Shown: positions 1-3,000 of the stretch, piece after piece | How positions within the stretch are numbered: the stretch's first letter is position 1 | How the letters are laid out: each line of letters begins with the position of its first letter | IMG/VR virus record: IMGVR_UViG_2534681835_000021 | Coordinates: 1 to 17,110 of that record | DNA: 17,110 bases | Reading direction: 5' to 3' (one strand) | From: a virus | Lineage: Duplodnaviria > Heunggongvirae > Uroviricota > Caudoviricetes | Made by a program: the position numbers

Positions 1-3000
1 TTCGTAAAACTCCAGCGTGGCACCTTCAGTACGGTCAAGACTAATCGCCACATCTGGCAACAACAGTGACGGATACCCACCAATTTCCAGTGCCACAGTA
101 ACAGTAATCTTATCCGGGTAATTATTTATCCCTTTAACAACCAGTTCGTATTTTTTCTTCATCGCTTTACTCTCCCCGCGCCGCCTTACGCTTATCTTCT
201 TTAATCTTGAAATAAAGGTTTGTCAGATACGTCAGCAGGCCAAACAGCAGACTCCCCAGCACACCTATCGCCACCCACTGGGACGGAGAGACTTTGTCCA
301 GCAGCTGCAGTAACCAGTATCCCGTCCCCACCGCTGACGTGGTGTATGACACACCCGTTGTGATTTTTTCCATCTGATGTATGTCTCCGTCACCGCCGAC
401 AGAAAATGAAAGTAAAGAAAAACAAAAAGCCGCCAGTGTCACCCACTGACGGCCAACGCCGGGAGCCGTGATTATGGCATTCAGGCTCTGCTAAAAATGC
501 CAGATAACATTCCGGCCTCCCCTGATTCAGGTTATAAATGACACAATATCTTGACAACATCCGTCACTGTCTGTCAGAAAATGTACTGCCATATAGAAGC
601 AACATGTGAAGTACATCTATCCTTTTGAGCCAGCACCTCTCCACCGAAAGTCAGTGCTGGCTGTTTTTTTCCTTAATAAGGCATCTGTAACTGAAACAAT
701 CCGCATATTGATAATATATTGACAGGCATCATTGCTGTCTGTGAAAAATAAGTCTCTACAAACATATAAGGCCTTTTAGCCAGCGTCTTCTTTTTCAGGT
801 CAGTCGCTGGCTTTTTTTATATGCTGCCGGTGCATTTATCTCCAGCATCAGACTTTCTATCTCAACGCCATACGCTGCATTTTTTGTAACATCCGTCAGC
901 GTCAGCGCATTCAGTCCCAGTGTCAGACTGTCTTTTATAACCTGGAATGCCGGGCCAGCCACTCCATTCAGTTTCGGAGTAACCGTGGCACTGCCGGCGG
1001 TGAACACCAGCTCCAGCGTCTGCCAGTCGTTACCGTAATCGCCGAACTCCCCCAGCTTCGTGTTTCCGGCTTTCCTGTGATGCATCAGATTCACTCTGCC
1101 GTCAGTGGTCTGAGTGAAGTACGACATCAGGAACGGATTACCGGTACCCGTCATCGCCACACCATCAGGAACGGGAGCATCCGTATACAGATAAATCCCC
1201 AGCCCGAACTGATTGTTGGTCAGTGCGCCTGACAGGCGGAACTTACAGGTCAGTCTGCCGCCCTGTGTCAGCAGGGTAATTGCGTCATCCACCGGATGCG
1301 TCAGGGACCAGGTTTTATTGCTCTGCTTGGTGATCTTAAATACACCATCTGACAACTGAATTCCGCCATCCTTAATGCTCCAGCCCTGCGCAGCAGCCTC
1401 TCCGGCTGCCGGCAGCAGGGAGATTGTGCGAACGGACGTATCTGCAGACGGACCCGATGGCGTGTTGCCGCCGGGCGAGGGTTTGATTTCCGGTGCCTTA
1501 CCACTGATGAAGGCTGAGGTGCGCCCGGCTGCGTTCAGAATAGCGGTTGCCAGACGATCCGGAATAATGCTCCTGCGCGCCCATGAACTGAAATGTGTCG
1601 GGCGGTTTGATGATACCTGGTTTCCATTCGTTCTCGATGCCGCACCGTAATATCCTGATGCCGGAATATCCGGATCTTCTGCCGGCGCGTTAGTGGCGGT
1701 ATTGACGCCGTTACCGTCTGTCATGAAGGGCACAAAATAAACGCCCTCACTCTCCCTGTTTTTATACCCGCCGTACACGGTGTCGTACTGGGTAGCGTAT
1801 GTATTTTTCCAGTAATACGTCGTGTCACCACAAACCCACGGCACATCTGCAGCACTGCCACCATGGCACTGCGCGTTAAACACGGAGAGGTCAGCACGAA
1901 ACTGTGCCAGCATGGCTGTAAACAGCGCAGGTTGCTGTGCGTGGGTGGCGGCGCTCATGTCAAACTCTCCCTGCATCCAGCACACCGCCAGCAACACATT
2001 TTTCGGGTTCTTCTGTAATGCAGCTTTAGTGCGCGCAATCAGGTCCTGATATAACGGTTTACCCACACCCCAGCGCGCCGAATCCTGGCTGGCCCCCGTG
2101 TCCGCACTGAATGTCCCCTCCGCGCCCTGGGTAAATGCCGAACCACCACGACAGCATGGTACCAGCAGGATCCCCGCGTTATTCGGGATATACGGGAGCA
2201 GTTTTTTGGCAATATGTAAACCCTGGCCGACACAGCCGTACTGCCCTTTGCTCAGGTCAGCCCTCGGATGATTCAGCGTACTCATATCCTGCACATCATG
2301 CAGACAGTGGTCAGCCGGAATAATATCGTTATATCTGCAGGCAGCCCCGCCCGGCGTCACTGTACTGCGGCGCGCCAGCTGTTTAATGCGCGGATCCGGA
2401 GCATCGTATGAATCCGGCAGCGGAAGCCCTTCACCGTAAGCCATGGCATTGGACTGCCCGGCCAGTACGATGACGTAGTACCAATCCGGCTCAGATGAAG
2501 GGCCGACCTGTGGCTCTCCTTCAATAGCCACCGCCTGCATCAGTGTGTACGGCGTAATGGCAACCGGTCCGCCGTATGGCTGCCAGCCCTCTTTCAGTTT
2601 GTGTGTCAGCTTTTCCGCAAGGTCTGACGGCGACGCCGCCCTGACAACATCGTAATGTTTAATCGACATCGAATTTCTCCCGTGTAGAGGAACAGAGTTA
2701 AAAAGCCGGAAGCGGAATCAAATCACAGGATGACCATCTGCCAGTGGCAGGTCATAAAAAAAAGGCTGCGCAATGCGCAGCCAGAACTCACAAGGAAAAT
2801 GATAAAAGGAATAACACTAGTGATGTACGCATGGCGCCTCCCGCTAAGTTCTGCAAATTGATCAAACAGAACTCGCTACGTGCCCTTAAAACTCGATCAT
2901 TTAGCCCCTCCAAGGAGGATTCACCATGCGGTTGATTTTTTAATAAACAGTAAACAAAAAAGTCAAGAATTATTCATTCTGTTCTTTCATCATCGGCCAC

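What the first reader, a model, noticed from the sequence alone, without database searches (positions are those of the whole stretch)
551..819. Tandem promoter-hairpin-U-tract units antisense to the lysis operon (candidate small RNAs)
Between the nanS-p-like gene and the holin, the plus strand carries two copies of a ~100-120 bp unit: a consensus -35 hexamer TTGACA (551-556 and 719-724), a conserved tgtctgt-(c/g)a(g/a)aaaat block, then a 9- or 8-bp-stem hairpin and a T7 run (ending 670 and 819). The flanking genes are all on the minus strand, so these terminators make sense only for short plus-strand transcripts. Such transcripts would be antisense to the 3' end of nanS-p and to the leader of the holin message, and could modulate lysis timing.
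Basis: seen in the sequence. Interest (0 to 1): 0.55.

Follow-up and report, generated by a model that had tools for sequence, protein, structure and literature searches.

The report
Known prophage small-RNA locus pasA

Summary
The plus strand between the holin and the sialate esterase gene (nanS-p) carries two related units. Each has a TTGACA hexamer, a CTGTCTGT/A-rich block, an 8-9 bp GC-rich hairpin and a T7 run. The second T run ends at 818, not 819.

Window 500-860 is identical, apart from one T indel, to the pasA locus of EPEC E2348/69. Unit 1 (586-670) is the 85-nt sRNA PasA. PasA was found by Hfq RIL-seq, confirmed by Northern blot and falls in an hfq mutant. Its published probe matches window 637-661 exactly. 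The published "minor" 236-nt form ends at the unit 2 terminator. Unit 2 (about 754-818) corresponds to the Hfq-crosslinked peak EcOnc52 of EHEC Sakai, and unit 1 to EcOnc51.

Both published 5' ends lie exactly 30 nt after the TTGACA, which fits two promoters. The -10 elements are weak, and no transcription-start mapping was found.

Terminator stems covary across variants. PasA/PasA-2/PasC look like reshuffled promoter, body and terminator modules.

RIL-seq links PasA to many mRNAs, most strongly to nanS-p 3' ends. No evidence supports a role in lysis timing.

Verdict: already known, with low-to-moderate interest. The one unremarked point is that unit 2 may be a separate tandem paralogue gene.

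The parts
551..556 (+). -35 hexamer TTGACA of the pasA (unit 1) promoter, preceded by an A/T-rich stretch
   Evidence: Sequence. The published PasA 5' end maps to 586, which is 556+30.
572..582 (+). Weak or ambiguous -10 region of unit 1. Either TG (572-573) plus CAGAAA (575-580) with an 18-nt spacer, or GAAAAT (577-582) with a 20-nt spacer.
   Evidence: Read from the sequence. Not called by the consensus scan. The block is conserved between the two units.
586..670 (+). PasA sRNA, the 85-nt major form; homologue of EHEC EcOnc51
   Evidence: 100% identical to E2348/69 NC_011601 743499-743415, minus strand (Table S6 of PMC8550237; alignment A2). The Northern probe equals the reverse complement of 637-661.
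629..638 (+). Published predicted PasA seed GCCAGCACCU, which overlaps the 5' arm of the terminator
   Evidence: PMC8550237 Fig. S5 text. Zhu et al. 2026 call this position unusual.
628..670 (+). Unit 1 intrinsic terminator and Hfq-binding module: 9-bp stem (628-636/654-662), 17-nt loop, G, U7 (664-670), preceded by CCUUUU (621-626)
   Evidence: Stem pairing is kept through compensatory changes across variants.
719..724 (+). -35 hexamer TTGACA of the putative unit 2 promoter
   Evidence: Sequence. The start of the EcOnc52 peak maps to 754, which is 724+30.
740..749 (+). Weak -10 region of unit 2. Either TG (740-741) plus GAAAAA (743-748) with an 18-nt spacer, or AAAAAT (744-749) with a 19-nt spacer.
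   Evidence: Read from the sequence. Not called by the scan.
754..818 (+). Unit 2 RNA, about 65 nt. It corresponds to EHEC EcOnc52, and its 3' end is also the end of the 236-nt minor PasA form.
   Evidence: RIL-seq entry pasA.E2348C_0688.IGR (743267-743294, equal to window 791-818) is always the second RNA of its chimeras, as sRNAs are.
778..818 (+). Unit 2 intrinsic terminator: 8-bp stem (778-785/805-812), U7 (812-818), preceded by CCUUUU (771-776)
   Evidence: (z = -3.6 against shuffles).
795..2669 (-). nanS-p / SASA-family sialate O-acetylesterase gene. In this window its last 8 codons run into the unit 2 terminator.
   Evidence: A 1-nt deletion near 820, relative to E2348/69, phage 434 and strain 8E, removes the usual TAA stop.
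829..859 (-). Site in the nanS-p 3' coding region found in RIL-seq chimeras with PasA (motif CUGAUGCUGGA, window 853-843)
   Evidence: PMC8550237 Tables S3 and S7. Coordinates were mapped through alignment A2.
418..454 (-). Late-strand intrinsic terminator between the sRNA units and the holin. It would end non-antiterminated nanS-p transcripts, giving a 3'UTR of about 375 nt complementary to both sRNAs.
   Evidence: 11-bp stem plus TTTTGTTTTT. Annotated as a terminator in phage 434. The 3'UTR reading is inference.
167..373 (-). Class II holin (pinholin) gene, the first gene of the lysis cassette
   Evidence: Annotation of the near-identical phage 434, E2348/69 and strain 8E regions.

Best explanation
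The interval is the pasA small-RNA locus of a lambdoid prophage related to phage 434 and Stx1 phages. It holds two tandem, related transcription units that run convergent to the late genes.

Unit 1. Host sigma-70 polymerase probably starts about 30 nt after the TTGACA at 551-556, near 586. Most transcripts stop at the hairpin plus U7 (628-670). The product is the 85-nt PasA.

Unit 2. A minority of unit 1 transcripts read through to the second terminator (778-818), giving the 236-nt form. Unit 2 probably also fires from its own TTGACA promoter (719-724), starting near 754, to give an RNA of about 65 nt (EcOnc52).

Mode of action. Both RNAs end in the standard Hfq-binding module: a U-rich stretch, a GC hairpin and a U tail. 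Hfq binds them, and PasA falls in an hfq mutant under virulence-activating conditions. With Hfq they pair with mRNAs in trans. Partners include core genes, type III secretion genes and, most abundantly, the 3' ends of nanS-p messages. Those 3' ends are also their cis-antisense partners.

Status of each step:
- Shown by others on identical or near-identical sequence: the RNAs exist, their sizes, Hfq binding and the RIL-seq partner lists.
- Shown here: sequence identity, mapping of published ends onto the window, terminator covariation, the modular variants and the taxonomic restriction.
- Inferred: the exact start sites, the independence of the unit 2 promoter and any regulatory outcome.
For: - Identity. 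Window 500-860 equals E2348/69 PP2 apart from one T indel. The PasA coordinates and probe map to 586-670 and 637-661, and the minor form ends at the unit 2 terminator.
- Context. The published PasA context is sialate esterase, then pasA, then holin-lysozyme, with pasD on the other side of the esterase (Zhu et al. 2026). The window has this layout, with a pasD2 homologue at 2756-2929 on the minus strand. NC_011356, the paper's representative PasA phage, matches at 99.4%.
- Expression and Hfq. Northern blot and Hfq-dependent stability are reported. pasA log2 fold change is -2.78 in the hfq mutant under activating conditions, with 41 RIL-seq interactions.
- EHEC. EcOnc51 covers the unit 1 3' part and EcOnc52 covers unit 2. 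Both are flagged with a Rho-independent terminator.
- Unit 2 in EPEC. Its 3' end behaves as an sRNA in RIL-seq, always the second RNA of its chimeras, in 5 interactions including escD.
- 5' ends. PasA, PasC and EcOnc52 all begin exactly 30 nt after the last base of their TTGACA.
- Structure. The terminator stem is paired in 96% of cells across 23 variants. Three of 9 pairs change on both sides, and 0 of 500 shuffles reach the observed percentage paired or covariation score.
- Strand. The T runs sit on the plus strand only.
- nanS-p link. 668 and 34 chimeras with PasA.
Against: - The -10 hexamers are poor, at 3-4 of 6, and the consensus scan called neither promoter.
- Zhu et al. state that the PasA 5' end may arise by cleavage of a longer transcript. 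No transcription-start (TEX or 5'-triphosphate) data were found.
- The EcOnc boundaries are crosslinking peaks, not mapped RNA ends.
- The unit 2 copies in Sakai Sp4 and Sp12 are identical. Assigning EcOnc52 to Sp4, where unit 1 is absent, may therefore be a read-mapping choice rather than proof of independent expression.
- EcOnc51 and EcOnc52 have no Northern blot.
- In the non-activating condition pasA goes up, not down, in the hfq mutant (log2 +1.94).
- No PasA target has been validated by mutation.
- All homologues are nearly identical, so promoter conservation says nothing about selection.
Confidence: 0.85

Rival explanations
1. Unit 2 is not a gene of its own. Its hairpin and U tract are only a back-up terminator for PasA read-through, and its TTGACA/CTGTCTGT block is an inactive relic of a duplication.
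For: - The EPEC authors describe one sRNA with a major 85-nt and a minor 236-nt form that ends at this terminator.
- The -10 is weak and the scan did not call the promoter.
- There is no Northern blot for EcOnc52.
- The copies in Sakai Sp4 and Sp12 are identical, so the peak could come from read-through RNA of Sp12.
Against: - The EcOnc52 peak starts at the position predicted for a start site (724+30) and is separate from EcOnc51.
- In RIL-seq the unit 2 3' end has its own partner set.
- The unit 2 promoter block is intact in 101 of 102 loci anchored on its terminator, though background variation is almost nil.
- Unit 2-only loci persist after IS insertions.
Confidence: 0.35
2. The RNAs act mainly in cis as antisense RNAs on the late transcript, across the nanS-p to holin spacer, and so set holin expression and lysis timing after induction.
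For: - Both RNAs are fully complementary to the late transcript between the nanS-p stop and the holin leader (sequence).
- RIL-seq shows that PasA does meet nanS-p 3' end RNA on Hfq.
- Lambda OOP RNA is a precedent for a convergent small RNA that acts on the 3' end of a neighbouring message (own knowledge).
Against: - No paper read here has data on lysis.
- The RNAs lie 210-450 nt upstream of the holin start and do not cover its ribosome binding site.
- They are abundant in uninduced lysogens, where holin mRNA is nearly absent (baseMean 3.5, against 102 for nanS-p and 3879 for pasA).
- PasC loci persist where the holin has been replaced by an IS element.
- Most RIL-seq partners are unlinked genes.
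Confidence: 0.12
3. The units serve chiefly as an insulator. Two convergent promoters and the late-strand terminator at 454-418 stop leaky transcription from pasD and nanS-p from reaching the lysis genes in the lysogen. The plus-strand terminators keep the sRNA promoters from producing antisense RNA across nanS-p.
For: - Layout: nanS-p stop, antisense unit 2, antisense unit 1, late-strand terminator, holin.
- There is a roughly 30-fold drop from nanS-p to holin RNA in EPEC.
Against: - This is pure inference. The late-strand terminator alone could account for the drop.
- It does not explain Hfq binding or the trans partners.
- It is compatible with the main explanation rather than exclusive of it.
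Confidence: 0.15
4. The hairpins matter as structures in the minus-strand (late or nanS-p) mRNA, for example as processing or 3'-stabilising elements, and the plus-strand RNAs are by-products.
For: The reverse complements fold about as well: z = -2.3 and -3.1. The unit 2 hairpin sits at the nanS-p stop codon.
Against: - The U tracts follow the hairpins only on the plus strand.
- Plus-strand RNAs ending exactly at those U tracts are abundant and Hfq-bound.
- Each hairpin has a consensus -35 about 75-110 nt upstream on the plus strand.
Confidence: 0.07

Closest known systems
PasA (pathogenicity-associated sRNA A) of EPEC E2348/69; homologue of EHEC EcOnc51. Pearl Mizrahi et al. 2021 (PMC8550237); Zhu, Shabalina and Storz 2026 (bioRxiv 10.64898/2026.05.13.724894)
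   Same: Unit 1 is 100% identical over the 85 nt and over the upstream promoter region. It has the same neighbours (sialate esterase and holin-lysozyme), the same opposite-strand orientation, and the same downstream second terminator that ends the 236-nt form.
   Different: Nothing in the RNA itself. The host prophage differs: it is related to O111:H8 strain 8E and carries a 1-nt deletion that extends nanS-p into the unit 2 terminator.
EcOnc52, an Hfq CRAC peak in Sakai prophage Sp4 (Tree et al. 2014, PMC4104026 Table S2)
   Same: Covers the homologue of unit 2, from the position equivalent to window 754 to just past the U tract. Flagged with a Rho-independent terminator.
   Different: The Sakai copy has a 2-nt shorter loop and an extra C before the U run. 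It was never given a Northern blot, a name or a function, and the EPEC paper folds it into PasA.
PasC of EPEC E2348/69 prophage PP5
   Same: Same promoter block and nearly the same 5' body as unit 1. Its terminator stem (AGCCAGCG/CGCTGGCT) and the flank that follows match unit 2.
   Different: It is a single unit that abuts nanS-p directly and has its own loop sequence. It looks like a unit 1 front joined to a unit 2-type terminator.
AsxR and AgvB anti-sRNAs (Rfam RF02703, RF02702) of EHEC prophages
   Same: Short Hfq-bound RNAs, convergent to the late genes, in the moron region downstream of Q in lambdoid prophages.
   Different: They lie on the other side of nanS-p, 3' of stx. They are 51-60 nt long, have no sequence similarity to these units, and gave no Rfam match anywhere in the window. 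They act by sponging the core sRNAs FnrS and GcvB.
OOP RNA of phage lambda (own knowledge, not tested here)
   Same: A short RNA with its own promoter and terminator, convergent to a phage gene and overlapping its 3' end. This is a working analogy for the cis-antisense relation to the nanS-p 3'UTR.
   Different: OOP acts through RNase III on cII mRNA and is not known as an Hfq-dependent multi-target sRNA. There is no sequence relation.

Membership tests
PasA sRNA (PasA/PasC group) | Sequence match to PasA of E2348/69 (NC_011601 743499-743415) and to its Northern probe | tested here: met
   100% identity over 586-670. The probe is the reverse complement of 637-661.
PasA sRNA (PasA/PasC group) | Location between the sialate esterase gene and the holin-lysozyme genes of a lambdoid prophage, on the opposite strand | tested here: met
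PasA sRNA (PasA/PasC group) | 3' stem-loop followed by poly-U (intrinsic terminator and Hfq site) | tested here: met
   Covariation.
PasA sRNA (PasA/PasC group) | Expressed as a discrete RNA of about 85 nt that depends on and binds Hfq | not testable with these tools
   Published for the identical sequence in E2348/69. Not measured for the organism of this window.
EcOnc52 (unit 2) | Sequence correspondence to the Sakai Sp4 peak 1181998-1182075, minus strand | tested here: met
   Alignment A3 and the sequence read. Near-identical, with a 2-nt loop indel and one extra C.
Independent sRNA gene (unit 2) | Own active promoter and a primary 5' end | tested here: inconclusive
   The -35 is consensus and the distance to the peak start is right. 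The -10 is weak, there are no start-site data, and sequence variation is too low for any inference about selection.
Sigma-70 promoter (both units) | -35 and -10 hexamers with a 16-18 nt spacer | tested here: inconclusive
   The -35 is 6 of 6 in both units. The best -10 readings are 3 of 6 with an upstream TG (18-nt spacer) or 4 of 6 with a 19-20 nt spacer. The scan did not call them.
AsxR / AgvB anti-sRNAs (Rfam RF02703 / RF02702) | Match to the Rfam covariance models | tested here: not met
   No match at gathering score in the whole window, and none at E up to 10 in 400-900.
Intrinsic (Rho-independent) terminator | GC-rich stem directly followed by a U run on the transcribed strand | tested here: met
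   Both units, plus strand only. Phage 434 annotates both as terminators.

The most novel reading that the evidence does not exclude
Unit 2 is a separate sRNA gene that has never been named. It would be a tandem paralogue of pasA with its own promoter, producing an Hfq-bound RNA of about 65 nt (EcOnc52) that ends at the nanS-p stop codon. The locus would then be a tandem sRNA pair, comparable to OmrA/OmrB. PasA, PasA-2, PasC and unit 2 would be products of shuffling three modules: promoter, body or seed, and terminator. The long nanS-p 3'UTR, complementary to both RNAs, would be their main cis partner or sponge, tying sialate esterase expression to the sRNA pool. The 2026 survey states that pasA copies are not tandem duplicates, and it discusses neither promoters nor this second unit.
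Probability: 0.4. Interest if true: 0.35.

Novelty: already known. Interest (0 to 1): 0.22.

Why it matters
PasA is among the most connected accessory-genome sRNAs in EPEC, with 41 RIL-seq partners that include type III secretion and pilus genes. It is widespread in EHEC and EPEC prophages and is present in the classical phage 434. No function has yet been shown for it.

For this scan, the value is mainly as a check on method: reading raw sequence for promoter, hairpin and U-tract units recovered a real, validated sRNA locus.

Three modest new points come out of the work:
- The locus is built of two related units, and the published RNA ends sit at promoter-consistent distances from both TTGACA hexamers.
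- The PasA/PasC variants are modular recombinants.
- The sRNAs lie inside what is probably the nanS-p 3'UTR, which would account for nanS-p being PasA's top RIL-seq partner.

None of this changes current understanding unless unit 2 proves to be an independent regulator.

Tried and rejected
- Rfam, whole window at gathering score and 400-900 at E up to 10: only chance-level snoRNA and sRNA hits, so no curated family covers these RNAs.
- AsxR/AgvB membership: rejected, with no model match and a different position.
- tRNA scan: none.
- Consensus promoter scan: called neither TTGACA promoter. It called a plus-strand CTGAAA-18-TATATT site at 691-720 and a minus-strand site at 741-713, at a count no higher than in shuffles. 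I did not build on these.
- Small ORFs on the plus strand of 440-830: only 20-38 codon frames with no support, so a coding reading was rejected.
- RNA duplex prediction between PasA or unit 2 and the nanS-p 3' coding region: no better than shuffled targets (p about 0.3 and 0.05), and other parts of the window scored higher. It was uninformative and dropped.
- Promoter conservation as evidence of selection: 101 of 102 loci keep the unit 2 promoter block, but the whole region is almost invariant, so no inference is possible.
- Search for distant homologues among species representatives: only Escherichia albertii, at 98% identity. The other 8 hits were single matches at about the number expected by chance.
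- An upstream hairpin in the PasA body (604-616) is predicted but not kept in PasA-2, so it is not counted as a feature.
- Literature search for EcOnc51 and EcOnc52 follow-up or start-site data: nothing found.
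Full report
**Observation**

- TTGACA lies at 551-556 and 719-724.
- A shared CTGTCTGT block followed by an A-rich stretch lies at 567-582 and 735-749.
- Unit 1 has a 9-bp hairpin (628-636/654-662) followed by G and T7 (664-670).
- Unit 2 has an 8-bp hairpin (778-785/805-812) with a T7 run at 812-818. That is one base short of the stated 819.

The composite TTGACA-N10-CTGTCTGT occurs only at these two sites in the 17-kb window, against about 0.1 expected. TTGACA alone is not enriched. The units align at 73% column identity, and unit 2 has the shorter body. 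The T runs follow the hairpins only on the plus strand. All flanking genes are on the minus strand: holin 167-373 and the nanS-p (SASA-family) sialate esterase at 795-2669.

**What it is**

Rfam has no family for these RNAs. The interval is, however, 99.4-99.8% identical to phage 434, to phage YYZ-2008 and to many Stx1 phages. It occurs in 1006 of 5426 complete E. coli genomes. The phage 434 record annotates the two hairpins as terminators on this strand and annotates no RNA gene.

The literature settles the identity. Pearl Mizrahi et al. (PMC8550237) found five prophage sRNAs in EPEC E2348/69 by Hfq RIL-seq. Their Table S6 gives PasA as NC_011601 743499 to 743415 (major form, 85 nt) or to 743264 (minor form, 236 nt), on the minus strand, with probe GCCAGCACTGACTTTCGGTGGAGAG.
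- Window 500-860 is identical to that locus except for one T indel.
- The mapping gives PasA as window 586-670, and the probe as the reverse complement of 637-661.
- The minor form ends at the unit 2 terminator.

Zhu, Shabalina and Storz (bioRxiv 10.64898/2026.05.13.724894) describe the same context: sialate esterase, then pasA or pasC, then holin-lysozyme, with pasD on the far side of the esterase. Their representative PasA phage is NC_011356. The window also carries the pasD2 homologue, at 2756-2929 on the minus strand.

**Unit 2**

Table S6 notes EHEC homologues EcOnc51 and EcOnc52. In Tree et al. (PMC4104026, Table S2) these are Hfq-crosslinked peaks flagged with Rho-independent terminators. 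They were seen in 3 of 5 data sets and have no Northern blot.
- EcOnc51 (Sakai Sp12) covers the 3' part of unit 1.
- EcOnc52 (Sakai Sp4) covers unit 2. It runs from CUCUACAAAC, equivalent to window 754, to just past the U tract.
- In Sp4 an IS629 insertion has removed unit 1.
- In EPEC the RIL-seq entry pasA.E2348C_0688.IGR (743267-743294, equal to window 791-818) is always the second RNA of its chimeras and has five partners, including escD. The authors merged it with PasA.

One caveat applies. The Sp4 and Sp12 copies of unit 2 are identical, so placing the peak in Sp4 may be a mapping choice.

**Promoters**

The published 5' ends of PasA and PasC, and the start of the EcOnc52 peak, each fall exactly 30 nt after the last base of their TTGACA: 586 = 556+30 and 754 = 724+30. 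That is the expected distance to a start site.

The -10 elements are weak. With an 18-nt spacer they read TG-n-CAGAAA and TG-n-GAAAAA. Alternatively they read GAAAAT and AAAAAT with 20- and 19-nt spacers. The consensus scan called neither promoter. Zhu et al. suggest that the PasA 5' end may come from processing. I found no start-site data. I therefore regard the unit 1 promoter as probable and the unit 2 promoter as about even odds or slightly better.

**Comparative evidence**

A scan of IMG/VR contigs found three main layouts:
- the two-unit layout, in about 65 loci;
- single units with the unit 1 promoter and a unit 2-type terminator (the PasC type), in 24 loci;
- single units with a third stem variant (AGCCAGUAC) that abut nanS-p, in 9 loci.

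A few loci have only one unit because of IS insertions.

Across 23 distinct RNA variants the terminator stem is paired in 96% of cells. Compensatory changes occur at three of nine pairs (CG to UA, GC to AU). None of 500 shuffles reaches the observed percentage paired or covariation score.

PasC therefore looks like a unit 1 front joined to a unit 2-type terminator. One locus shows the reverse combination. The family evolves by swapping modules around the shared UUUUAGCCAGC junction.

The family is confined to Escherichia. Among species representatives only E. albertii has it, at 98% identity, in agreement with Zhu et al.. Sequence variation is too low to test selection on the promoters.

**Mechanism**

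Both RNAs end in the usual Hfq module: CCUUUU, a GC hairpin and U7.
- pasA falls 2.8 log2 units in the hfq mutant under activating conditions. It rises under non-activating conditions.
- PasA has 41 RIL-seq interactions. The predicted seed GCCAGCACCU (629-638) overlaps the terminator stem.
- The most abundant partner is the 3' end of the paralogous esterase mRNA E2348C_1246, with 668 chimeras. The adjacent E2348C_0688 gives 34 chimeras, at the site equivalent to window 829-859.

A late-strand terminator at 454-418 lies between the units and the holin. Non-antiterminated nanS-p transcripts would therefore carry a 3'UTR of about 375 nt complementary to both sRNAs; this step is inference.

Nothing links the RNAs to the holin or to lysis timing.
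- They do not cover the holin ribosome binding site.
- They are abundant in uninduced cells, where holin RNA is nearly absent.
- PasC persists where the holin has been replaced by an IS element.

**Verdict**

The feature is already known as PasA (EcOnc51) together with EcOnc52. The only unremarked aspect is the tandem two-gene reading of the locus and the modular origin of its variants.

Noticed in passing
window 2756-2929, minus strand: Homologue of the sRNA PasD2, identical to E2348/69 apart from a 2-nt indel. It lies just upstream of nanS-p on the late strand and has a strong terminator (stem 2782-2764 plus T8). It gives a sub-threshold Rfam STnc100 match (38.5 bits against a gathering score of 47, E = 7e-7), in line with the PasD-STnc100 relation proposed by Zhu et al. 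Read-through from it might feed nanS-p expression in lysogens; that is speculation.
   Followed up: partly
window 819-821: A 1-nt deletion (TATATG instead of TATTATG) relative to E2348/69, phage 434, E. albertii and strain 8E. It removes the usual TAA stop of nanS-p and extends the protein by 8 residues (ending AYKKSQRLT) into the unit 2 terminator, giving 624 aa instead of 616. It could be a real variant or a sequencing error.
   Followed up: partly
window about 9285-9584: Junction between a late/nin region related to phage 434 (minus strand) and a truncated tail-tip gene followed by Lom, tail fibre, nleH and cif (plus strand). This suggests an inversion or recombination between prophages. 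Among 5426 complete E. coli genomes only O111:H8 strain 8E (NZ_CP077465) spans it. The window is 99.76% identical to that genome over 179-17109, and bases 1-178 did not align to it.
   Followed up: partly
window 418-454, minus strand: Intrinsic terminator on the late strand about 45 nt upstream of the holin start, also annotated in phage 434. Together with EPEC RNA levels (nanS-p 102, holin 3.5) it suggests that nanS-p is transcribed in lysogens and is insulated from the lysis genes.
   Followed up: partly
window 691-720 (plus strand) and 741-713 (minus strand): Two promoter-like sites called by the consensus scan inside the spacer and the unit 2 promoter. The minus-strand site would drive transcription antisense to PasA, towards the holin. 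The number of such sites is no higher than in shuffled sequence.
   Followed up: no
window 5306-6265 (plus strand) and 4140-4829 (minus strand): A lipid A deacylase gene (lpxR) sits between a truncated antiterminator gene and an intact Q gene. Q and LpxR are the neighbour genes that Zhu et al. report as typical of pasD loci.
   Followed up: no
L006 (Sakai Sp4) 1076-1145; IMG/VR variants listed: IS629/IS1203 insertions recur in this small interval. One removes unit 1 in Sakai Sp4. Others cut the unit 1 terminator (which may correspond to the terminator-less published PasA-3 variant) or the unit 2 body.
   Followed up: partly
window 12769-14711, plus strand: The type III effector genes nleH and cif lie next to the tail fibre genes, so the window belongs to an effector-carrying lambdoid prophage of an attaching-and-effacing E. 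coli.
   Followed up: no
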